Source: a virus
Virus genome (UHGV): UHGV-0041833
Length of the DNA: 37,438 nt
Direction: 5' to 3' (one strand)
Positions within the stretch are counted from its first letter, which is position 1, and each line of letters opens with the position of its first letter. Below the pieces are notes generated by a model. It was given only the letters and a program-made list of their open reading frames with translations. It was not told the DNA's origin and did not search any database. The translations under genes and the position numbers were made by a program. Shown here in pieces: positions 279 through 9,480 of this stretch.

Positions 279-1190
279 ATGACCATACTGGTACCCCCAA
301 GCAAATTTTGCATTTACTCAGATGATTCTAGGGCTGGGACATTGAACTTCATCAACTCGATTGAATCGATTGGAGTAAAAAATAAAGGTCGAGTTATAGT
401 TGATTTGTCCAAGGTAAAATTTGCCTCAGCTGCGGCATCGGTACTGTTCTTTGCCATAGTAAATAGAGCTCAATTTTTAACCCGGGACCCTAATTTTATA
501 CGTTTTAAATGGCCTAAAAAGGATGATAACCCATCTGGGCATAGATGGATCGTTGGTACTGGACTTGCTCGTGCTTTGCTTGCTGGCACAGAAGAGAAAC
601 TGAATGCACTTACGAGGGAGGAACGATACTTTCAGTCAGCTGTCGAACCTTACGAGCATATTGTTGAAACAGTACTCATGCTGCAGAAAAGTGCTCTGCT
701 TAATAATGAACAGTTAGGCTTACTGCTGACAGCGATTAGTGAAGCTTTGCTCAATGTTTCTCATCATGCGTATGAAGATGAGGGGTTCGAGTCAGATATT
801 CAGCTTCTCAAAGGTAAACGATGGTGGCAGTGCGCTTGGTTCAATCGTGATGAAAATAAAGTCGTTTTTATCGTTTGTGACCTTGGATTGGGGATTTATA
901 GAAGTTTCGTGCCTAATGGTGATGGTCATAGCATTCAAAACGAAGTATCTTCTGTGGAAAGAGCTATGTTAGTAGGGGAATCCCGCTTTGTTGGTTCCGG
1001 ACGGGGAAATGGCTCTGAAGATATCAAGAGACCTATTGGGGCAGGTTGTGAGGATAATGAGACACTTCTGATACTAACAGGAAGGGCTCGTTATAGCTAT
1101 AATTCTAATGACAGTAGTCCTCGATGTGAGAAGCTAGCTGAGTACATACCGGGTACTTTACTACAATGGTCGCTGGTTCCCAGGAGATGA
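279..1190 (+). CDS. GHKL (histidine-kinase/anti-sigma-factor kinase-like) ATPase-domain protein with STAS-like N-terminal segment; cargo gene 1
   Basis: 303-aa ORF; C-terminal half has N-box-like EALLNVSHHA, G1-like CDLGLGI, G2-like GSGRGNG; N-terminal VIVDLSKVKFASAAAS resembles STAS motif; AT-rich versus phage core; first of three tightly spaced genes. Confidence 0.5.
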   Translation: MTILVPPSKFCIYSDDSRAGTLNFINSIESIGVKNKGRVIVDLSKVKFASAAASVLFFAIVNRAQFLTRDPNFIRFKWPKKDDNPSGHRWIVGTGLARALLAGTEEKLNALTREERYFQSAVEPYEHIVETVLMLQKSALLNNEQLGLLLTAISEALLNVSHHAYEDEGFESDIQLLKGKRWWQCAWFNRDENKVVFIVCDLGLGIYRSFVPNGDGHSIQNEVSSVERAMLVGESRFVGSGRGNGSEDIKRPIGAGCEDNETLLILTGRARYSYNSNDSSPRCEKLAEYIPGTLLQWSLVPRR

Positions 1191-1194
1191 TTTT

Positions 1195-1521
1195 ATGAGA
1201 AATATCGTCATAGCGAAGGAGTTCTCCAGAACACCTTTCGGACGTTACACAACGGATAGCCCACACAGTGCGGAAAGATTTCGTAGAGAGTTTTTGGTGC
1301 CTGCGCTGAAGGGTACTGAACAGGAGATTGTGGTTGATTTTCGCGGTATAGCACTGGGTGTTGGTTCCTCTTTCTTAGAAGAGGCGTTTGGAGGTCTCAT
1401 CCGTAAGGAAGGGATACCTAAAGCCAACGTTAAAGCACGTTTGATTATAAAAAGTGATGTTCCGTTCTACAAAGAACAGATTGATAAATTTATTGATTTA
1501 GCACAACCAGAAAGAGTATAA
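1195..1521 (+). CDS. STAS-like (DUF4325-type) small protein; cargo gene 2
   Basis: 108-aa ORF starting 4 nt after previous stop with AGGAGA SD 7 nt upstream; VVDFRGIALGVGSSFLEEAFGGL resembles STAS-like partner-switching domains. Confidence 0.5.
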   Translation: MRNIVIAKEFSRTPFGRYTTDSPHSAERFRREFLVPALKGTEQEIVVDFRGIALGVGSSFLEEAFGGLIRKEGIPKANVKARLIIKSDVPFYKEQIDKFIDLAQPERV

Positions 1522-1531
1522 GAGGCGATAG

Positions 1532-2149
1532 TTGATCAGTACGGAACCAATGTCATTAGTAGCACAAATAGGACAGTATTCGTGGTGTATCACAGTAGTT
1601 AGCGTCTGCTTAGTTTTCATTGGATGGCGAGTTGCGTACAATAATTCTGTAAAACTGGCGACACGTTCTGAATCGAAATCAATTATTGATGCTATTTCAA
1701 AGTTAGTTATTGAAATTTCTGATATTTCTTCTAACTATTGGCTCAGTCAGACAACTCAACCTAAAATTAGAGCATCAAAGCATCGATTGTTAAGGTTGCA
1801 AAAGGATAGAACAAAGGCTTCTGTTTCATACTTGTTAACTATCTTGGCTAAAGCTCAACAAGTTTCCAAACTGATTTGCATTTTGGAAAGCAGAGGACTG
1901 TATATACCTGACGAGGTGTTCTCATCTGTACTAGAGAAAGCAACTCTGGATTGTGAGGTCGCTCACAAGCTTTCAGATGCCGATCGCCCGGTTAAAGCAC
2001 AAGAAGTAATTGATGCTTGTATGGGAGTTATCGAAGCGTTACATACTTCTTTTCAAAGGTACCACCCTCCCAAAAAGGATCGTACCTTTATGCAAAGGTT
2101 AAAAATTTGGTTTCAAACAGTAGACGATTGGCATAATGACTTAAAATAA
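1532..2149 (+). CDS. Single-pass membrane protein with helical cytoplasmic domain; cargo gene 3
   Basis: 205-aa ORF; TTG start with AGAGG SD 6 nt upstream (alternative ATG at 1550); one predicted TM helix SWCITVVSVCLVFIGW; 3' end overlaps the int stop codon by 9 nt (convergent). Confidence 0.5.
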   Translation: MISTEPMSLVAQIGQYSWCITVVSVCLVFIGWRVAYNNSVKLATRSESKSIIDAISKLVIEISDISSNYWLSQTTQPKIRASKHRLLRLQKDRTKASVSYLLTILAKAQQVSKLICILESRGLYIPDEVFSSVLEKATLDCEVAHKLSDADRPVKAQEVIDACMGVIEALHTSFQRYHPPKKDRTFMQRLKIWFQTVDDWHNDLK

Positions 2150-3313
2150 AGCCTTTTTATCCTTGATACTTGCCCTCCCATCATACTCTTTCAAGTATTG
2201 TCCATAGTGCCTGAATAACATTTCAGGCCCTTTATGGCCCATTTGAGCCGCAAGCCAAAACAGGTTTGCTCCCCGGCTGATATGGCTGGTGGCGAATGTA
2301 TGCCTGGTTTGATATGGGTTTCTGTAACGAATACCTGCTTTTCGCAATGTTGGCACCCATGCTTTTTTCCTAATTGCATCAGCACTTGCCCAGGGTTTAT
2401 TGGTCTTTGGATCTTCAAAGACAGTAGCATCCTTCATGAATGTAAATGGCTTCTGGTTTATCAACGCCAACATTGCTTCTTCAGTCAGTTCAACTTTACG
2501 GGTACCGGCTTTTGTCTTTGTTCCTTTGATAACTCCGACAACACTTGCGCTCTGAACATGGGCTGTTTTTCCAACAAAGTCGATATCATGCCATCGTAGG
2601 GCACATAATTCAGAACTACGCAGGCCTGTATGTATGGCGAACCGGAACAGATTTTCCCATTGTTTGTTTCCGGCTGCTGCTAGTAATGCATCAACTTCTG
2701 CTGGTGATAGCGGATCAACCACATAGCTGCTTTCTGCTTCTGACTTATCACTTTGGTAGCGCGAAGCTGTTACTAACGATACGGGGTTAATTTGAAGTAC
2801 CCCATCGGTCACGGCTTCATCAAGTGCTGACCGTAGGAAAGATAACTGGTTGCGAATGGTTTTTAAGGTTGTTTTCTGGCTTTGAATCCACGCTTTCAGG
2901 GTTGCTGGTGTTAATTCACTTGCAGGGCAAATGTGAAGTGAGGCTAACGCACTACGGCATTTTTTATAGCCACCAATCGTAGAGGGTGAAAGTTTTCTTG
3001 TTTCGCAGATTTCAAGATATTCGTCCAGGTACATCTTTACCGTTTTGCTTGCAGCAGCATTACCAAAAATTTTCAAACGAGCAGAACGGGGAAAATATTC
3101 TGCATAAATGAATGTTCCCCTTTCGATCTTATTATGGATTTCGCCGAGTGTACGCTCGGCGTATTTAATGTTCTTTGGTGTTACTTCCAGATTGGAAAGC
3201 GGCTCACGACATCTAACTCCTTTGTAGGTGAAAGTTATATTGATCGTTTCTCCCTGGTGGTGTTTCCTGATTGTTACGCCGCGCGGTAGTTTGAGCAGTT
3301 TTGTCTGGCCCAT
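2141..3313 (-). CDS. int: Tyrosine integrase (phage integrase family with N-terminal arm-binding domain)
   Basis: 390 aa; ATG at 3313 with GAGG SD; C-terminal catalytic region with R...H..R...Y-type motifs (HTFATSHISRGANL, FRHYGQY); overlapped at its 5' end by the xis ORF. Confidence 0.9.
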   Translation of the reverse strand: MGQTKLLKLPRGVTIRKHHQGETINITFTYKGVRCREPLSNLEVTPKNIKYAERTLGEIHNKIERGTFIYAEYFPRSARLKIFGNAAASKTVKMYLDEYLEICETRKLSPSTIGGYKKCRSALASLHICPASELTPATLKAWIQSQKTTLKTIRNQLSFLRSALDEAVTDGVLQINPVSLVTASRYQSDKSEAESSYVVDPLSPAEVDALLAAAGNKQWENLFRFAIHTGLRSSELCALRWHDIDFVGKTAHVQSASVVGVIKGTKTKAGTRKVELTEEAMLALINQKPFTFMKDATVFEDPKTNKPWASADAIRKKAWVPTLRKAGIRYRNPYQTRHTFATSHISRGANLFWLAAQMGHKGPEMLFRHYGQYLKEYDGRASIKDKKALF

Positions 3314-3480
3314 TTTGCAACCTCACTAAGATCAATCCACCTCTCCTTAACGCCTTCAACCTTTAAAACCTGAACACCTTCACGCCAAACACCGCGCTGT
3401 ACACGTTTGTTTATTGCTTCAGGAGTTTCGCCAGTTTCTTTGCAATAAGTTGAGATAGGAACACAATCGAGGTTCAGCAT
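3274..3480 (-). CDS. xis: Excisionase-like small DNA-binding protein
   Basis: 68 aa from ATG 3480 (GGAG SD 6 nt upstream; alternative starts 3492, 3519); overlaps int start by 40 nt; small basic winged-helix-like protein in canonical xis position. Confidence 0.55.
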   Translation of the reverse strand: MLNLDCVPISTYCKETGETPEAINKRVQRGVWREGVQVLKVEGVKERWIDLSEVAKWARQNCSNYRAA

Positions 3481-3521
3481 ACGTTTCTCCATTATCCCGT
3501 CTGCACACGGGAGCAACATTA

Positions 3522-4388
3522 TTAACGAATAGTGTCGTTACTTTGAAGTACAGCAAATGCCATTAATACTTCTAAAGTATATCTTCTATAAAATTTAACA
3601 AAACCAACATAGAAAACATAGACGAAGAAAAAGCTAAGCATTATTGAAAGTAAACTATAAAGATAATCACTATGAGTACATAATCGATAAATAAAGGTTG
3701 GAACTGATACCCAAAATGAAATTATAAAGATTAAACATATGTTTCTGCAAAAACCATATAATGCAACATAGTTTTGAATTTTTGTTTGATGTTGTTTTGA
3801 AAACTCATAAACATAATGATATGCCAATCTGAAGAGATCATCATCAAGTCCGTTTTTATCTTGTAATAATTGGCGATTTGTTATGAACTTTTTCTCATAA
3901 CCTTCTTTGATCATTAACCATGTTGTATTAGCTAAATGAAATGGTAGAGATTGAGAATAACATAGTTTTTGTGTTATAAAATCCCATAGTATTATTGGAC
4001 ATAATACGCATTTGATTATGCGATTCTTTATTTTTGTTTTTTTATCAGCGCTTCTCTCATCGCATGATGGGCTACAAATGCTTTCTGAGGTATCTATCAA
4101 TTTTTTAAATAGATATTTGGAAGGATATCCTAATTCTTTATTCATGTATTTTTCGATAAAAAATGCTGACGTGATAGAAATAAAATGTCCAGCTATATAA
4201 GATATAATAACTATTGAAGCGTAGTTCAAAATGCCAAAGATTTGACTTTGACCTCTGAGCAATTCACTTAAGTCAATAACAATATCTAGATCGAATGTCA
4301 AACCACAGAAATACATTAATAGGATAAAAAAACCACCTGGTATTAAATATCCAAGAAAGTCATAGAATGAGAATGGATTTTGATTCAT
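3522..4388 (-). CDS. Polytopic inner-membrane protein of unknown function (AT-rich cargo gene upstream of xis-int)
   Basis: 288 aa from ATG 4388 with GGAGA SD; several hydrophobic helices at N- and C-termini; strongly AT-rich; 108-bp AT-rich upstream intergenic region with promoter-like hexamers. Confidence 0.6.
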   Translation of the reverse strand: MNQNPFSFYDFLGYLIPGGFFILLMYFCGLTFDLDIVIDLSELLRGQSQIFGILNYASIVIISYIAGHFISITSAFFIEKYMNKELGYPSKYLFKKLIDTSESICSPSCDERSADKKTKIKNRIIKCVLCPIILWDFITQKLCYSQSLPFHLANTTWLMIKEGYEKKFITNRQLLQDKNGLDDDLFRLAYHYVYEFSKQHQTKIQNYVALYGFCRNICLIFIISFWVSVPTFIYRLCTHSDYLYSLLSIMLSFFFVYVFYVGFVKFYRRYTLEVLMAFAVLQSNDTIR

Positions 4389-4496
4389 TGTTGCTCTCCA
4401 ATAATTTTTCAATTTGTAATATAACCTATATCTATATGTTAATAAATTACTTATATGTTCTTTTATGGCAGAGTTTGAATTCGTACGTGCTGATTT

Positions 4497-5148: not shown

Positions 5149-5973
5149 TCAGGCGGTAAAAGTACCAATAAAGGTTTCTACTTTGCTGTCCTTGAATTTC
5201 TCAACAAGCAGATCACGAAATTCGTTAGCCATTTCTTCCTGCACTGCTTCCAGCTGAATAATGCGCAGAACCAGTACAGGACGATCGCCAGTGATAATGC
5301 TGAGGCGTAATTTAAACGGACGTTCTTTCAGGCCTTCAAACGGAACGCATTTAAATTCAAATGCCACTGGCATAATATCTTTGGTCTTCGCTTCGACAGA
5401 CTCCATCAGGGAGCGTTTGCCGCTGAAGTCATTGTCTTCAAAATCAGCGGTCTGGTTTGCTTCAATCGTGATTTTACGGACTGCCGCAGCCGCTTTTGTT
5501 GCCTGAATGGCATCACCATTAGCATCAAAGCCCACAAGGTAGTCGGCCCAGTCTTCAATCCATTCTGCCAGTGACTTCTGGGAGTTACGCTCGCCGTTAA
5601 CAGACAACAGAGCAGAGAACGGTGCTGTCTTTTTCAGTTTGAGAGTGGCGGTGTTATCTGCGTGACCAGGCTCATCAATAGTACCCAGGTTAAGCACACT
5701 GACGGCACGCATATTATCGGCATCGATAAAGCAGCGGGTGCCTTCATCCGCAAGATCTTTAGAATAACGGGTAAAGTCATCGATGCTGGCAGTGGAAAGC
5801 GCACCACGGAAACGGAAGCGATTTAAATTAAATTTTTCCAGATCATGAATGCGGAAATTTTCAGGTAATGCCACTGCGTCGGCACCAATCTTACTGATAA
5901 TTTCATTAACACCCTGAGCAGAAATAAGGGCATGGATTTGATTAATTGCGGTTGCGTCTAAGTTCTGAGACAT
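5149..5973 (-). CDS. DUF2303 (YfdQ-like) phage early protein
   Basis: 274 aa; ATG with GAGGA SD; position and length match the YfdQ-type gene of CPS-53-like prophages. Confidence 0.6.
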
Positions 5974-6038
5974 AATAAGTCCTCACTATATAAAGATATT
6001 CAGTGATGAGATAAATAATCAGTTAATTAAGAACGATA

Positions 6039-6401
6039 TTAATGACCTGCTGCGCGGAGTTTTCCGTCAGGTTCACCGGCAAGAGTCAGTAATTGTCCCT
6101 GGTCTTCCTGCAGAATAGTCAGGCGACCACCGCGATTGACATACATCGGCGTTTCGGTGGTGTCTTCTTCGGAAATTTTCCCGCGGTTAGTCGGACGAAC
6201 ATATGAGAGTTTGTGTTTTATTTTCACACGGTTCTCATCAAACGGTTCGATTTCCAGGTTGAGCGAGACCTTACCTTTGGTTTTCGTGTTCATCACACCG
6301 GAAGCGACTTCACTGAGAACTGCGCCGATTTTGGTTTCAAATACGCCGCCGTCCAGCTCCCCGATAAATTCCTGCACGTTGGTACTGCGTTCGCTAGCCA
6401 T
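6039..6401 (-). CDS. Hypothetical early protein (YfdP-like), first gene of the early-left operon
   Basis: 120 aa from ATG 6401 with AGGAG SD 7 nt upstream; the longer in-frame reading to 6719 is low-complexity and GC-rich and lacks an SD. Confidence 0.55.
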   Translation of the reverse strand: MASERSTNVQEFIGELDGGVFETKIGAVLSEVASGVMNTKTKGKVSLNLEIEPFDENRVKIKHKLSYVRPTNRGKISEEDTTETPMYVNRGGRLTILQEDQGQLLTLAGEPDGKLRAAGH

Positions 6402-6869
6402 TTTGCTGCTCCTCATCATATCGACCCTGCAAGGTCGGTTGGTTTCTCCACAAAACAGAGAAGAACACCTGCGGTGGCAGCCGCCCGGGTGGATTGGGTT
6501 ATGAGCCCGTCGTCCGGTGATGCTCTTCTCTGTTTTGTAAAAAGAGCGGTACCAGCCGGAAGCAAGGGTACAAGCTGGTACCGCCAGGACTACACACAGC
6601 ATAAAGTTGTGGTGCCGGGTGCCTCCCGGTGCCTGGCGAAGGTTGCACACCAGGCGGGTGGGTATCCACAGAAGGTCGACTGTCAGCCTCAACCTTAACC
6701 CGCGTGCGCTGAGCCGCATTCACCACAACGCTAAGGATTCTCTCTGGTTGAAAATACTTAGCTGTTATGTGCCTGCTTTTAGCCACATCAGGCGAGGTGG
6801 GCCTGGTTATTCCCCAACAACAAGGATTCGGCTAATCTGGATGACTCTGTTCTTAGAGGGGATAATTAA
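6402..6869. other. GC-rich, hairpin-dense non-coding region (candidate early-left promoter/leader or structured RNA)
   Basis: About 470 bp with no convincing ORF on either strand, multiple stable stem-loops, and operator-like half-site GGTACAAG identical to the OR1 right half. Confidence 0.3.
6546..6584. repeat. 11-bp perfect inverted repeat gcggtaccagc / gctggtaccgc with 17-nt spacer
   Basis: Direct reading; the spacer contains GGTACAAG; each arm contains palindromic GGTACC. Confidence 0.6.
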
Positions 6870-7382
6870 ATGGGAGCGATTTATGTTAAACGTTTGATTC
6901 TGTCGGTAGCACTGATAATACCGATAGCATCCAATGCTTCTGATGCTTTGAACCAGCCGAGCAGTAGTCTAAATGATGGTGTTGAGACTTTTTTTATTTC
7001 CTGCTTTGATATGCCTCAGGAAACAACTACTGATATGGACGCTTGTCAGAGAGTTCAGTTAGCTCAGGTTAGTTGGGTTAAGAATAAGTATTCGGTGGCC
7101 GCCCTGAATCGTTTGAAACAAGACAACAAGGATGATCCACAGCGTCTGCAGGAATTAACTGCTTCTTTTAACGCGGAAAGTGAAGCTTGGACAGAATTAA
7201 TTGAGAAAGCGTCAAAGTCCGTCCAGGTTGATTATGCAGGAGGAACTATAGCTGGCACTGCAGTTGCATCACGTCAAATTGGTCTTCTGGAATTACAATC
7301 CCACGATATCTGGGAGCACTGGCTACGATTCGAGGACTCAACTCCTCCTCTTTTGCCAGAACCAAAGTTCAAATCTGAGTAA
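6870..7382 (+). CDS. Secreted periplasmic protein with cleavable signal peptide (possibly DUF1311/LprI-like); moron
   Basis: 170 aa; GAGGGG SD; N-terminal signal peptide MGAIYVKRLILSVALIIPIASNA; own terminator downstream; opposite orientation to neighbouring early genes. Confidence 0.6.
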   Translation: MGAIYVKRLILSVALIIPIASNASDALNQPSSSLNDGVETFFISCFDMPQETTTDMDACQRVQLAQVSWVKNKYSVAALNRLKQDNKDDPQRLQELTASFNAESEAWTELIEKASKSVQVDYAGGTIAGTAVASRQIGLLELQSHDIWEHWLRFEDSTPPLLPEPKFKSE

Positions 7383-7408
7383 TAAGTCATCCAGATTGTT
7401 AAAGAGCG

Positions 7409-7432
7409 AAGCGTCCTATAGGGCGCTTTTTT
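7409..7432 (+). terminator. Rho-independent terminator after the secreted-protein gene
   Basis: 8-bp stem (aagcgtcc/gggcgctt) with tata loop followed by TTTTTT. Confidence 0.6.
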
Positions 7433-7549
7433 GTTGCTAACGAATCATCCTGGACTTCATATGCCCCAGGCGGCTACTTCGTGGGCGTCCTGCCTGTTTG
7501 TTGTTTCTCTTGGGTACATTATGTATCTCAAAGGTATATTATCAAGTAT

Positions 7550-7572
7550 AAAAAAACCTGCCGAAGCAGGTT
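7550..7572 (-). terminator. Rho-independent terminator downstream of cI (minus strand)
   Basis: cctgc cgaa gcagg hairpin preceded on the plus strand by A7, giving a U-tract on the minus-strand transcript. Confidence 0.55.
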
Positions 7573-7584
7573 CATAAACATTGA

Positions 7585-8259
7585 TTAGGCTTTGATTTTG
7601 TATCTTCTTGGTTTTCCTGAGAAAATCACAGTACCAATTATAGAGCAATTACCGTTGATCTTAATGTAAGGCTCAGGCCAGTTTGGGTTTAACGCTTTGA
7701 GATAACGCTGTGTCCCATCTTCTATCAACCTTTTGAAGGTGGTTTCACCTGTATCGTGCATCAATGCAATAACGTCGTCACCGTGGCAGGCAGGTACTTC
7801 AGGATCGACAAAAATCATGTCTCCCGGGCGGTACTCATCAATCATTGAATCACCTATCACCCGCAAGATATAAGTCATTTCCCCACAGGGTACAGGGCAG
7901 GGATACGTTTCTGCTGTGCTCAAATCAACCTCAGAATATCCAACTTCTTTCCATGCTCCGGCCTGTACCCATGATATGACAGGGACTAATGTGATTTGTT
8001 TATTAGTGATTGAAACATCAGGTTTTTTTGTGATGTTCGTTGTCTGGTGTTCTTGATCGAGCCATCCGACAGGCAGGTCGAAACATTTTTCGATGTGTCG
8101 TGCCATGCTGTCACCGATATTTTTAGTAGCACCATCTCCCATAAACCTGCTGGTCTGGGTTGGCTCGCGATCAATCATAGTGGCAAAGGAAGAATTCCCG
8201 CCAACACCATCTCTCAGTTTTCTGGCGTTAGACCGCCGGATGTCATGGATTGTTTTCAT
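7585..8259 (-). CDS. cI: CI-type repressor (N-terminal HTH, C-terminal S24 LexA-like autopeptidase domain)
   Basis: 224 aa; Ala-Gly cleavage-site-like WVQAGAW, Ser nucleophile motif GDSM, downstream Lys; divergent from cro across operator region. Confidence 0.85.
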   Translation of the reverse strand: MKTIHDIRRSNARKLRDGVGGNSSFATMIDREPTQTSRFMGDGATKNIGDSMARHIEKCFDLPVGWLDQEHQTTNITKKPDVSITNKQITLVPVISWVQAGAWKEVGYSEVDLSTAETYPCPVPCGEMTYILRVIGDSMIDEYRPGDMIFVDPEVPACHGDDVIALMHDTGETTFKRLIEDGTQRYLKALNPNWPEPYIKINGNCSIIGTVIFSGKPRRYKIKA

Positions 8260-8274
8260 AACGAAATTAAAACC

Positions 8275-8345
8275 CTTGTACCGTTAAGGTACAAGTATCT
8301 TGAAGGTTCATTTCAATCATGTAATATGTACACCGGAGGTACACA
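8275..8345. promoter_or_regulatory. Right operator region: two 17-bp palindromic operators (TGTAC-N7-GTACA) flanking a rightward promoter (-35 TTGAAG 8300..8305, -10 TAATAT 8322..8327)
   Basis: OR1 cttgtaccgttaaggtacaag (8275..8295), OR2 atgtacaccggaggtacacat (8325..8345); promoter hexamers with 16-bp spacer; cro SD GGAGG at 8335..8339. Confidence 0.6.
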
Positions 8346-8349
8346 TTGT

Positions 8350-8550
8350 ATGAAAGCGTATTGGGACTCTTTAACCAAAGAACAGCAGGGCGAGTTGGCC
8401 GGAAAAGTTGGCTCAACACCTGGCTACTTACGGCTGGTTTTCAATGGCTATAAAAAAGCCAGTTTTGTGCTGGCTAAAAAACTTGAGCAATGCACGTCAG
8501 GTGCAATTACGAAATCTGACTTAAGACCGGATATCTATCCGAAAGATTAG
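8350..8550 (+). CDS. cro: Cro-like small HTH regulator
   Basis: 66 aa from ATG 8350 directly downstream of pR/operators; the 167-aa track ORF from 8047 is antisense to cI and rejected. Confidence 0.7.
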   Translation: MKAYWDSLTKEQQGELAGKVGSTPGYLRLVFNGYKKASFVLAKKLEQCTSGAITKSDLRPDIYPKD

Positions 8551-8581
8551 CAGAACACTTTCAATTTTTAACCACAGAACG

Positions 8582-9145
8582 ATGAGGCTAATCGTGGGTA
8601 AGCATCACTGGAAAATAGAAAAACAGCCTGAGTGGTACGTGAAAGCTGTCAGAAAAACGATCGCGGCGTTGCCGGGTGGTTACGCTGAAGCGGCTGACTG
8701 GCTCGATGTAACAGAAAACGCTTTATTCAACCGCCTTCGTGCAGATGGCGATCAGATTTTCCCGCTGGGATGGGCAATGGTTTTACAGCGTGCTGGTGGC
8801 ACTCACTTCATTGCTGATGCTGTGGCGCAGTCTGCAAATGGCGTCTTTGTGTCTCTTCCTGACGTCGAGGATGTGGACAACGCCGATATCAACCAACGCC
8901 TGCTGGAGGTCATTGAACAGATCGGCAGTTATTCAAAACAGATTCGTTCAGCAATTGAAGACGGTGTAGTGGAACCGCATGAGAAGACAGCAATTAACGA
9001 TGAGCTGTACCTCTCAATTTCGAAGCTGCAGGAGCATGCAGCACTGGTCTACAAAATCTTTTGCGTTTCAGAAAGTAGTGACGCCCGCGAGTGTGCAGCT
9101 CCGGGCGCCGTGGCGTGTCGTGACTGTGGAGAAACTAACGCATGA
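8582..9145 (+). CDS. CII-like regulatory protein (phage 186 CII / CP76-YdaT-type)
   Basis: 187-aa ORF directly after cro; composition and layout resemble 186-type CII proteins; C-terminal extent uncertain because of overlapping frames. Confidence 0.45.
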
Positions 9146-9480
9146 ACAGTTTAACAACACACTACCGTCGCTCGCAACTGATTGCGCTTCCTGTACCGGG
9201 TGGAAAAGCGAAGGTGGAGTATTGCTATGCAGTAAATGTACCAGGTGACAGGGAAATTGTAACCCACAGCTTTGCTGAGTGGGCTGTGGGTGATTTCAAC
9301 CGGCAGAAGGAGACAGTCCTTTGCGACAAGTTAACCGCTGGTTCAAAGATCACTACGGAGTGCCCGTCAGAGTCATTCGTTGGGAACCGGAAACACAACG
9401 GGTTATCTACCTCCGCGAAGGCTATGAGCATGAATGCTTCAGTCCGCTCGAACAGTTTCGTCGTAAATTCAGGGAAATAG
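9142..9480 (+). CDS. Hypothetical protein (frame uncertain; possibly the N-terminal part of a gene continuing in another frame)
   Basis: ATG overlaps previous stop (ATGA); the first 55 residues look protein-like, the remainder is Ser/Asn-rich and low-complexity. Confidence 0.3.

What the first reader, a model, noticed from the sequence alone, without database searches (positions are those of the whole stretch)
3522..4388. AT-rich polytopic membrane protein immediately upstream of xis-int
This 288-aa multi-helix membrane protein has a strong SD, a markedly lower GC content than its neighbours and an AT-rich upstream region with promoter-like hexamers. It sits between the early-left genes and xis. 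Membrane proteins at this position in lambdoid prophages are often superinfection-exclusion or abortive-infection factors; I could not place it in a known family.
Basis: inference. Interest (0 to 1): 0.55.

Follow-up and report, generated by a model that had tools for sequence, protein, structure and literature searches.

The report
Prophage Csx27-like four-helix membrane protein
This is a real, well-conserved membrane-protein gene of unknown function, carried as a foreign-looking insert just before the excision and integration genes of an E. coli prophage; it is a distant relative of the CRISPR accessory protein Csx27 and a reasonable but untested candidate for a factor used in competition between phages.

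Summary
Window 3522-4388 (- strand) encodes a 288-aa protein. It has a GGAG ribosome-binding site, 28.5% GC against 42-50% in the flanks, four transmembrane helices and a roughly 125-aa cytoplasmic helical domain. It is under purifying selection (dN/dS about 0.2).

The claimed promoter is only a weak 8/12 match, though its position is conserved. No terminator separates the gene from xis-int.

The window is an E. coli B2/ExPEC prophage (UTI89 type). The gene is annotated hypothetical and occurs in 205 of 5426 complete E. coli genomes.

It belongs to a large unnamed family: 956 clusters at 50% identity, across many phyla, with no Pfam family and no structural match. Two independent Csx27 profiles detect the family, and reversed-sequence controls give no hits. 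It fails the Csx27 cut-off, is never next to cas13b, and carries an extra central domain.

It is a single-gene cassette with no conserved partner, and its GC is below the flanks in 74 of 76 diverse genomes. It recurs in two temperate-phage variable slots: directly upstream of xis-int in lambdoid prophages with several integrase types, and in the gpA-gpQ antiviral hotspot of P2-like phages.

A role in superinfection exclusion or abortive infection is plausible but not demonstrated. An early-lytic accessory role is a serious rival.

The parts
3522..4388 (-). Coding sequence of the 288-aa Csx27-like membrane protein (stop codon 3522-3524; equals UTI89_RS27040 / WP_001075212.1)
   Evidence: ORF list and sequence. 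100% identical in UTI89 and 175 or more other E. coli genomes. Full-length match to PHROG 12528, function unknown. dN/dS about 0.2.
4396..4399 (-). Shine-Dalgarno GGAG, 7 nt upstream of the ATG
   Evidence: Read from the sequence. TTGGAG is invariant in six diverged upstream regions.
4389..4465 (-). AT-rich upstream region that travels with the gene. It contains a weak promoter-like pair, TTTATT (4446-4441), 17-nt spacer, TATATT (4423-4418)
   Evidence: Similarity between different phage backgrounds begins about 75 nt before the start codon, and the hexamer positions are kept. The match is only 8/12 and falls below the scan threshold.
4296..4367 (-). TM helix 1 (aa 8-31), preceded by the family's invariant N-terminal motif NPFS-YDFLGY-PG (aa 4-18)
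   Evidence: Hydropathy, AlphaFold helices, invariant columns.
4155..4235 (-). TM helix 2 (aa 52-78), with invariant Y64, G67, H68 and S74 and with E79 at its cytoplasmic end
3774..4154 (-). Central all-helical domain, predicted cytoplasmic (aa 79-205; 20 K+R). It includes the motifs GYPS-YL, P131-D136 and DLFR-AYHY-E-H200, and a variable, low-confidence loop at aa 96-115
   Evidence: Charge counts, pLDDT and secondary structure, conservation. PADLOC aligned residues 6-268 of the query to positions 4-188 of its 206-position Csx27 profile; I infer from this that the central region is largely absent from Csx27.
3681..3773 (-). TM helix 3 (aa 206-236), beginning with the invariant motif NYVALYGF-R
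3585..3662 (-). TM helix 4 (aa 243-268), followed by the conserved cytoplasmic tail KFYRR-LE-LMA
3481..3521 (-). 41-nt junction to xis. It holds a short hairpin (TCCCGT 3512-3507 / ACGGGA 3500-3495) with no T-run, then the xis SD at 3490-3487. No terminator is present, so read-through into xis-int is expected
   Evidence: Sequence. The terminator scan found none here.

Best explanation
**What is shown.**
- The gene encodes an inner-membrane protein with four TM helices. The N-terminus, the roughly 125-aa central helical domain and the C-terminal tail are all predicted to face the cytoplasm.
- Nearly all family-invariant polar residues sit at the cytoplasmic membrane face: D10, H68, S74, E79, H191, E195, H200, N206, R215, K265, R268/R269 and E273.
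- It belongs to a large, unnamed, horizontally mobile family that is distantly homologous to Csx27.
- It moves as a single-gene cassette with its own short upstream region.
- Temperate phages have captured it repeatedly in variable accessory slots.

**What is inferred.** In this prophage it most likely acts in competition between mobile elements, as a stand-alone exclusion or abortive-infection type effector in the membrane. The conserved cytoplasmic site would sense or bind a signal or incoming nucleic acid. The four-helix bundle, probably as an oligomer, would either block genome entry of a second phage or perturb the membrane. Expression would come from the early-left (pL) transcript, and possibly at a low level from its own weak promoter in the lysogen.

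The identity and family placement are secure. The function is a best guess.
For: **It is a real gene.**

**Topology and conserved cytoplasm-facing residues.**

**Family size and breadth.** 956 clusters at 50% identity reach E<=1e-3, nearly all 270-300 aa and full length. They span many phyla.

**Csx27 homology.**
- The PADLOC Csx27 model is hit by 46 of 64 members, best E 1.3e-8.
- The independent NCBIfam NF040557 model is hit by 51 of 109 members, best E 4.7e-6; the next family is hit by 8.
- None of 40 reversed sequences hit either PADLOC model.
- 4 of 64 members also touch the PADLOC defence candidate PDC-M48A.

**Mobility.**
- Gene GC is below the flanks in 74 of 76 diverse genomes, median -8 points.
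- No neighbour is conserved.
- About 75 nt of upstream sequence moves with the gene.

**Phage hot-spots.**
- Clades at 100, 85, 78, 52, 50 and 49% identity all lie directly upstream of a small xis-like ORF plus an integrase. Integrase lengths are 330-401 aa and the types differ.
- Related phages with the same yfdP-Q-R module carry EaE, Ea22 and similar genes in this slot instead.
- A 42%-identity clade sits between gpA and gpQ of P2/P88-like phages. That locus was shown experimentally to be a reservoir of antiviral systems (PMC9122126).

**Chromosomal context.** R-M genes are the most recurrent function near family members, and 5 of 10 large neighbours examined are defence-type. These are Type ISP, SIR2-STAND, HsdR, a ResIII helicase, and an SF1 helicase with DUF2726.

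**Precedent.** Transmembrane proteins in known systems commonly act as suicide or exclusion effectors (PMC9122126).
Against: - There is no homology to any characterised Sie, Abi or defence protein.
- Association with defence genes in chromosomes is modest. Most neighbours are housekeeping or unknown, and integrases account for only 4 of 145 immediate neighbours.
- No terminator lies between the gene and xis-int, and the promoter match is only 8/12. Constitutive expression in the lysogen is therefore doubtful, which fits an early-lytic role as well as a lysogen-protective one.
- Csx27 itself has no established mechanism. It represses Cas13b when co-expressed in E. coli (bioRxiv 10.1101/092577).
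- The P2-hotspot arrangement containing the relative was catalogued, but I found no test of it in that paper.
Confidence: 0.38

Rival explanations
1. It is an early-lytic accessory ('ea-type') membrane protein. It would be expressed from pL together with xis-int after induction or infection, and it would serve the phage's own development. Possible roles are host take-over, arrest of division or metabolism, conditioning of the membrane, or exclusion of competitors only during lytic growth. It would not protect the lysogen.
For: - It has the same strand and operon position as yfdP-yfdQ-yfdR-xis-int, with a 41-nt junction and no terminator before xis.
- It occupies the slot that EaE/Ea22-type early genes fill in sister phages.
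- In Salmonella prophages it is the first gene after the repressor gene and its roughly 740-nt gap, followed directly by xis-int.
- Its own promoter match is weak.
Against: - The same family occurs as a solitary gene in dozens of non-phage chromosomal contexts across phyla. It is not tied to a phage lytic programme.
- In P2-like phages it sits in the cos-proximal hotspot, in a two-gene unit behind a 720-nt intergenic region. The genes known at that hotspot, old and tin, act from the prophage (PMC9122126).
- About 75 nt of upstream sequence is conserved with the gene, which suggests it carries its own signals.
Confidence: 0.27
2. It is a membrane-embedded enzyme or lysogenic-conversion factor. 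It would modify a lipid, the envelope or a small molecule through the conserved His/Asp/Glu/Ser site, changing the cell surface or the host's physiology.
For: - An unusually large set of invariant polar residues clusters at one membrane face: D10, H68, S74, E79, H191, H200, N206 and R215.
- A few relatives lie next to glycosyltransferase or epimerase genes, 2 of 145 for each.
- From general knowledge, int-proximal genes of enterobacterial prophages include O-antigen modification genes such as gtrABC and oac.
Against: - There is no match to any enzyme family by sequence or by fold.
- The conserved site is predicted to face the cytoplasm, not the periplasm, where O-antigen modification takes place.
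- The known conversion genes lie on the other side of int.
- No pathway partner is conserved.
Confidence: 0.1
3. It is a nucleic-acid channel or DNA-uptake component, as proposed for the Csx27 family. It would form a membrane conduit for ssDNA and function in DNA transport rather than in immunity.
For: - It is remotely homologous to Csx27.
- A comparative-genomic analysis proposed that the Csx27 family forms part of an ssDNA uptake or DNA modification machinery (summarised in PMC8209922, and PMC7642515).
Against: - None of the associations that motivated that proposal was seen around 76 diverse family members. These are natural-transformation genes, ubiquitin-system proteins and WYL regulators.
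- E. coli prophages have no obvious use for a DNA-uptake channel.
- The proposal itself has not been tested.
Confidence: 0.08
4. It is a chance ORF or a decaying remnant with no function.
For: AT-rich, H-NS-type DNA is often silent. No expression data are available.
Against: - A 288-codon open frame at 28.5% GC has a chance of about 6e-11.
- dN/dS is about 0.2.
- Full-length homologues exist in 956 clusters.
- The SD and the start position are invariant.
Confidence: 0.01

Closest known systems
Csx27, accessory protein of type VI-B1 CRISPR-Cas systems (NCBIfam NF040557; PADLOC PDLC01605 and tm_4 PDLC01604)
   Same: - Both have four predicted TM helices.
- The N-terminal motif and the helix order are shared. 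PADLOC aligned residues 6-268 to profile positions 4-188 of 206.
- Both Csx27 profiles detect the family far above any other family, and the signal disappears with reversed sequences.
   Different: - The score is 14.9 bits against a 65-bit cut-off.
- It is about 288 aa rather than about 200-220 aa, because of a central cytoplasmic helical domain of roughly 100-125 aa.
- It is never next to cas13b or a CRISPR array in the loci examined.
- It is found in Enterobacteriaceae prophages rather than in Bacteroidota CRISPR loci.
- The only known activity of Csx27, repression of Cas13b, has no counterpart here.
The wider 'Csx27 family' of four-TM proteins (Makarova et al. 2019, FEMS Microbiol Lett 366:fnz088; that paper is not held in the library, and I know it through and from memory)
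   Same: It is a four-TM protein with detectable Csx27 similarity. It is widely distributed, with many members in Bacteroidota.
   Different: - The contexts that define that family's proposed role were not found. Those contexts are natural-transformation genes, ubiquitin-system proteins, WYL-HTH regulators and a DNA-modification module.
- I could not check whether this clade of about 280 aa was already included in that study.
Prophage-encoded membrane exclusion or abortive-infection proteins (lambda RexB, P22 SieA/SieB, T4 Imm, HK97 gp15) and the P2 hotspot genes old and tin
   Same: It is a small, prophage-borne, non-essential membrane protein in a variable accessory slot. A relative lies in the same gpA-gpQ hotspot as old and tin.
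   Different: - It has no sequence or profile similarity to any of them.
- No phenotype is known.
- Its position inside the pL-xis-int transcription unit differs from rexAB (transcribed from pRM) and from old/tin.
PHROG 12528 (phage protein family of unknown function)
   Same: It is a full-length member: residues 1-288 match profile positions 1-288, E 8e-174.
   Different: The PHROG carries no functional information.

Membership tests
Csx27 proper (type VI-B1 CRISPR accessory; NCBIfam NF040557 equivalog) | Score at or above the curated cut-off (65 bits) of the equivalog model | tested here: not met
   14.9 bits, E 0.02, and only residues 5-43 aligned. The best of 109 family members reaches E 4.7e-6, and the window protein scores far below the 65-bit cut-off.
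Csx27 proper (type VI-B1 CRISPR accessory; NCBIfam NF040557 equivalog) | Encoded next to cas13b and a CRISPR array | tested here: not met
   The flanking genes are yfdR and xis-int. No conserved neighbour was found in 76 diverse loci. None of the 10 large neighbours examined is Cas13b.
Csx27 proper (type VI-B1 CRISPR accessory; NCBIfam NF040557 equivalog) | Represses Cas13b-mediated interference | not testable with these tools
   This is an experimental property (bioRxiv 10.1101/092577).
Csx27-like superfamily of four-TM proteins | Four predicted transmembrane helices | tested here: met
   Hydropathy peaks and AlphaFold helices at 8-31, 52-86, 198-238 and 243-280.
Csx27-like superfamily of four-TM proteins | Sequence-profile similarity to Csx27 that is specific and not compositional | tested here: met
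   PADLOC Csx27 is hit by 46 of 64 members, best E 1.3e-8. NCBIfam CAS_Csx27 is hit by 51 of 109 members, against 8 for the next family. Reversed sequences give 0 of 40. A direct profile-profile test against a Csx27 alignment could not be run.
Csx27-like superfamily of four-TM proteins | Operon association with natural-transformation, ubiquitin-system or WYL-HTH genes, or with a DNA-modification module | tested here: not met
   No such Pfam families appear among the recurrent +-1 and +-2 neighbours, and BLAST clustering found no conserved neighbour. R-M methylases occur in a few loci, but as ordinary R-M systems.
Known prophage exclusion/abortive-infection or defence proteins (PADLOC, PHROGs) | Homology to a characterised defence or exclusion protein | tested here: not met
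   The only PADLOC hits are Csx27 and tm_4. The PHROG hit is 'unknown function'.
Known prophage exclusion/abortive-infection or defence proteins (PADLOC, PHROGs) | Location in a variable accessory or defence hotspot of a mobile element | tested here: met
   It occupies the variable slot between yfdR and xis. The position upstream of xis-int is the same in clades down to 49% identity. A relative lies in the P2 gpA-gpQ hotspot.
Known prophage exclusion/abortive-infection or defence proteins (PADLOC, PHROGs) | Reduces plating or entry of a superinfecting phage | not testable with these tools
   This requires plaque assays.

The most novel reading that the evidence does not exclude
The roughly 280-aa Csx27-like family would be a widespread, stand-alone membrane gatekeeper for incoming nucleic acid. 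It would be an oligomeric four-helix channel or plug whose conserved cytoplasmic His/Asp/Glu site senses or binds entering DNA. Temperate phages of two unrelated lineages, lambdoid and P2-like, would have captured it as a single-gene superinfection-exclusion device. If so, Csx27 in type VI-B CRISPR loci would be the CRISPR-coupled version of the same entry-surveillance module, which would finally give Csx27 a mechanism.
Probability: 0.2. Interest if true: 0.7.

Novelty: new variant of a known kind. Interest (0 to 1): 0.48.

Why it matters
- **A candidate single-gene system.** If the protein is an exclusion or abortive-infection effector, it would add a single-gene membrane system present in about 4% of complete E. 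coli genomes, including UTI89, S88, APEC O1 and other ExPEC strains. It would also assign a role to a family of roughly a thousand 50%-identity clusters across many phyla.
- **A handle on Csx27.** It offers a tractable E. coli entry point to Csx27, whose mechanism is still unknown eight years after its discovery.
- **A possible new hotspot.** The slot directly upstream of xis-int in lambdoid prophages could be an anchor-defined hotspot to mine, in the way the P2 gpA-gpQ locus has been.
- **If it is instead an early-lytic accessory gene,** it is one more member of the poorly understood exo-xis/ea region.

Tried and rejected
**Family and structure searches that found nothing informative**
- Pfam, NCBIfam, PHROGs and PADLOC on the protein gave only the weak Csx27 lead and an unknown-function PHROG.
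- The afdb50 library was unavailable.
- A profile search of PDB sequences found nothing.

**Search for a partner gene**
- BLAST clustering of +-5 neighbours in 76 diverse genomes found no partner.
- jackhmmer with the DUF4760 protein, the Pseudomonas 156-aa protein and the window's 205-aa protein found only lineage-specific pairings.

**Defence-island enrichment**
- Pfam and PADLOC counts on +-1 and +-2 neighbours show R-M genes and integrases as the most recurrent functions, but at low frequency.
- This is not strong enough to claim enrichment.

**Cas13b adjacency**
- I checked 10 of the 19 large neighbours; none is Cas13b.

**Compositional artefact as the source of the Csx27 hits**
- Rejected by the reversed-sequence control.

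**Literature**
- No paper mentions WP_001075212, PDC-M48, or DUF4760 in a defence context.
- Makarova et al. 2019 is not held in the library.
- Rousset et al. 2022 list the P2-hotspot arrangement that matches the relative's locus, but I found no test of it there.

**Considered and rejected by motif inspection, without tool support**

**RNA genes**
- Rfam and tRNA scans of the window found nothing.
Full report

Yes. The - strand carries an open frame from ATG 4388 to the stop at 3524-3522, 288 codons.
- An upstream in-frame TTG at 4412 would add 8 residues. Every homologue begins M/V-N-Q-N-P-F at the same position, so 4388 is the start.
- GGAG lies at 4399-4396, 7 nt before the ATG, and is invariant in six diverged upstream regions.
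- The gene is 28.5% GC. Sliding windows give 0.27-0.30 over the gene against 0.42-0.50 on both sides.
- A 288-codon open frame at that composition has a chance of about 6e-11. dN/dS against the 85% and 78% identity clades is 0.17-0.23. It is a coding gene under purifying selection.
- Hydropathy gives four strong hydrophobic segments. The charge distribution is 20 K+R in residues 85-225 plus a KFYRR tail, with almost none in the N-terminus or in the 33-50 loop.
- By the positive-inside rule this places the N-terminus, the central domain and the C-terminus in the cytoplasm.
- Two AlphaFold models agree on helices at 8-31, 52-86, 198-238 and 243-280. Between TM2 and TM3 lies a bundle of short helices. 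The models have pLDDT 71.5 with 17 sequences and 82.7 (pTM 0.84) with 109 sequences.

- The consensus scan found nothing at 9/12 or better in the 108-nt gap upstream, and no terminator on either side of the gene.
- The best candidate is TTTATT (4446-4441), a 17-nt spacer, then TATATT (4423-4418), an 8/12 match.

**2. Where is it?**

The window is a lambdoid prophage of E. coli phylogroup-B2 ExPEC strains, inserted beside glaH/csiD.
- The gene is 100% identical to UTI89_RS27040 (WP_001075212.1, 'hypothetical protein').
- It is present once per genome in 205 of 5426 complete E. coli genomes: 176 at 99% nucleotide identity or more, and 24 at 80-90%.
- On the same strand the order is yfdP, yfdQ (DUF2303), yfdR (HD 5'-deoxynucleotidase), this gene, xis, int.
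- Sister phages with the same yfdP-Q-R module are mEp460, Stx2a_WGPS2 and PhiR40_1. Between yfdR and the xis/int end they carry EaE, Ea22 and other small 'ea' genes. The gene therefore occupies the variable exo-xis/ea slot.
- The junction to xis is 41 nt. It holds a 6-bp hairpin with no T-run, followed by the xis SD. Read-through into xis-int is expected.

**3. What family is it?**
- Pfam has nothing. PHROG 12528, of unknown function, matches end to end.
- A word-indexed search found 593 homologues, all 'hypothetical' and all in Enterobacteriaceae.
- A profile search of 1.84 billion representatives found 956 clusters at E<=1e-3, of which 490 reach E<=1e-10. Nearly all are 270-300 aa and match full length.
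- A genome scan shows members in Gamma-, Beta- and Deltaproteobacteria, many Bacteroidota, Firmicutes, Acidobacteria, Anaerolineales, Spirochaetes and others.
- Invariant or near-invariant positions across 109 sequences are P5 F6 S7 Y9 D10 L12 G13 Y14 P17 G18, Y64 G67 H68 S74 E79, P89 S90, P131, H191 (E195) H200 N206 Y207 A209 G212 R215, W226, F263 (K265 R268) R269 (E273).
- With the topology above, essentially all the conserved polar residues lie at the cytoplasmic face of the membrane. This looks like a binding or catalytic site rather than mere packing.

**4. Closest known relative: Csx27.**
- PADLOC's Csx27 model matched the protein at E 1.4e-5, residues 6-268 to profile positions 4-188 of 206. 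The sister model tm_4 matched at E 1.3e-3.
- NCBIfam's CAS_Csx27 gave E 0.02 (14.9 bits against a 65-bit cut-off) over the N-terminal motif and TM1.
- Because single weak hits between membrane proteins are unreliable, I tested the whole family. 46 of 64 members hit PADLOC Csx27, best E 1.3e-8. 51 of 109 hit the independently built NCBIfam model, best E 4.7e-6, with the next family at 8 members.
- As a control for composition, 40 members with reversed sequence gave no hit to either PADLOC model.
- I conclude that the family is a genuine remote relative of Csx27 but is not Csx27. It fails the curated cut-off and is about 80 residues longer. The PADLOC alignment spans 263 residues of the protein but only 185 profile positions, so most of the extra length appears to lie in the central domain.
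- It is not next to cas13b here or in any related locus examined.
- Csx27 itself has no known mechanism. It represses Cas13b interference in E. coli (bioRxiv 10.1101/092577).
- A 2019 comparative analysis proposed that its wider family forms ssDNA channels linked to natural transformation, ubiquitin-like and WYL proteins (as summarised in PMC7642515, and PMC8209922). The original paper is not held in the library.
- None of those associations appears around the present family.

**5. How does it behave as a genetic unit?**

It is a single-gene cassette.
- In 76 diverse genomes, BLAST clustering of the ten surrounding genes finds no neighbour shared beyond near-identical strains.
- Lineage-specific partners exist: a DUF4760 protein in P2-like phages and a 156-aa membrane protein in Pseudomonas. 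They do not generalise.
- Its GC is below that of the flanks in 74 of 76 genomes, median -8 points and up to -26 in Pseudomonas. Amino-acid composition contributes to this, but a deficit this consistent fits a gene that keeps arriving by horizontal transfer.
- About 75 nt of upstream sequence, including the SD and the weak hexamer pair in register, is conserved. This holds between copies that follow yfdR in E. coli and copies in Salmonella-type prophages with unrelated upstream DNA.

It recurs at two temperate-phage variable loci.
- **Lambdoid prophages.** In IMG/VR prophage contigs and assembled genomes, clades at 100, 85, 78, 52, 50 and 49% identity to the window protein all sit immediately upstream of a 72-118-aa xis-like ORF. 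In most cases an integrase follows. The integrases are of different lengths and types (330, 336-338, 382, 388-393 and 401 aa; Arm-DNA-bind_2 type, DUF4224 plus Phage_integrase type), and the upstream genes differ.
- **P2/P88-like phages.** A 42%-identity clade lies between the portal gene and the replication endonuclease gene, beside a ParM/StbA partition module. Rousset et al. showed experimentally that this gpA-gpQ locus is a hotspot of antiviral systems, and that about a quarter of P2-like phages carry a partition system there (PMC9122126).
[quoted passage not shown] That is the same gene set as in the P88-like phage. I found no test of it there.

In chromosomes the neighbourhood is heterogeneous.
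- The most recurrent functions within two genes are integrases (4 of 145) and R-M components. The R-M counts are Methylase_S 2 and ResIII 2 of 145, and N6_Mtase 3, Eco57I 3 and HsdM_N 2 of 140.
- Of ten large neighbours examined, five are defence-type: Type ISP R-M, SIR2-STAND NTPase, HsdR, a ResIII helicase, and an SF1 helicase with DUF2726.
- This is suggestive but not a demonstrated enrichment.

**6. Most likely mechanism.**

*Shown:*
- It is an inner-membrane four-helix protein with a conserved cytoplasm-facing polar site.
- It is a mobile single-gene cassette.
- Phage accessory hot-spots have captured it repeatedly.
- It is remotely homologous to a CRISPR-associated membrane protein.

*Inferred:* it functions in conflict between mobile elements, as a stand-alone membrane effector. 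Either it blocks genome entry of a second phage, or it perturbs the membrane when its cytoplasmic domain detects infection. I put this at about 0.38.

*Main rival (about 0.27):* it is an early-lytic 'ea-type' accessory protein made from pL together with Xis and Int.
- For the rival: no terminator before xis, a weak own promoter, and the Salmonella arrangement of repressor, a 740-nt gap, the gene, then xis-int.
- Against a purely phage-developmental role: the many solitary chromosomal copies and the P2-hotspot copy.

*Lesser rivals:*
- A membrane enzyme or lysogenic-conversion factor (0.1). The many invariant polar residues favour it. Against it are the absence of any enzyme homology, a site predicted on the cytoplasmic side, and the lack of pathway partners.
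- The ssDNA-channel idea inherited from Csx27 (0.08).
- A spurious ORF, which is excluded.

**7. Novelty and verdict.**

The gene is already in databases as a hypothetical protein and an unknown PHROG. Nothing in the searchable literature names it.

New here:
- its placement as a domain-expanded, CRISPR-independent relative of Csx27;
- the size and breadth of its family;
- its cassette behaviour and its recurrence at two phage hot-spots.

I rate it a new variant of a known, itself poorly understood, kind. Interest is moderate (0.48): it is a good, cheap candidate for a plaque-assay test and a possible handle on Csx27, but there is no functional evidence yet.

One caveat remains. I could not read Makarova et al. 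2019, so this clade may already be included in their 'expansive family'.

Noticed in passing
window 279-2149 (+ strand), beyond int towards the host gene glaH: A three-gene cassette lies here. It encodes a 303-aa protein with a weak HATPase_c_2 (anti-sigma-kinase-like) match, a 108-aa STAS-like DUF4325 protein, and a 205-aa protein with an N-terminal TM helix (PHROGs 3364, 5816 and 30059, all of unknown function). PADLOC gives no hit. It looks like a partner-switching module carried as int-distal cargo. Otherwise identical prophages carry different genes at this spot (a 129-aa or a 205-aa ORF follows int).
   Followed up: partly
window 3277-3519 and 2141-3313 (- strand): The mechanical 81-aa xis ORF starts 2 nt after the stop of the membrane-protein gene. 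The PHROG excisionase match (residues 10-81), the GGAG at 3490-3487 and RefSeq all point to a 68-aa Xis starting at 3480. The 3' end of xis overlaps the start of int by 37 nt.
   Followed up: partly
window 6416-6726 (- strand) and surroundings, 6300-6750: This stretch has unusually high GC (0.55-0.58) and long overlapping ORFs on both strands, next to yfdP. RefSeq annotates a frameshifted hypothetical pseudogene here in UTI89.
   Followed up: no
window 6870-7382 (+ strand): A 170-aa ORF has a signal-peptide-like N-terminus (MGAIYVKRLILSVALIIPIASNASDA). It lies opposite in orientation to the early-left genes and just upstream of the LexA-family repressor gene. It may be a secreted or periplasmic accessory gene of the prophage. 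It is annotated hypothetical in UTI89.
   Followed up: no
L003 4464-5843 (P88-like phage PV468777.1); also L155-L161, L177, L178: In P2/P88-like phages the 42%-identity relative follows a 165-aa DUF4760 membrane protein by 40 nt, forming an apparent two-gene unit in the gpA-gpQ hotspot. In two IMG/VR contigs (L177, L178) the DUF4760 gene is intact, but only the first 19-75 residues of the relative were matched within the stored sequence.
   Followed up: partly
L004 7462-8813 (Pseudomonas sp. MAG); also L005, L006, L069: The Pseudomonas family member (40.6% GC against 61.4% GC in its flanks) is followed after 38 nt by a 156-aa multi-TM protein with a weak 8xMP (PF24838) match. This is another lineage-specific pairing with a small membrane protein.
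   Followed up: partly
L019-L022 (Salmonella enterica prophages), locus positions 5567-9250: These are compact prophage left arms. The repressor gene is followed by a roughly 740-nt gap, then the 78%-identity relative (GTG start), then xis and int. No other early-left genes are present. The relative would be the first gene of any pL-type transcript there.
   Followed up: no
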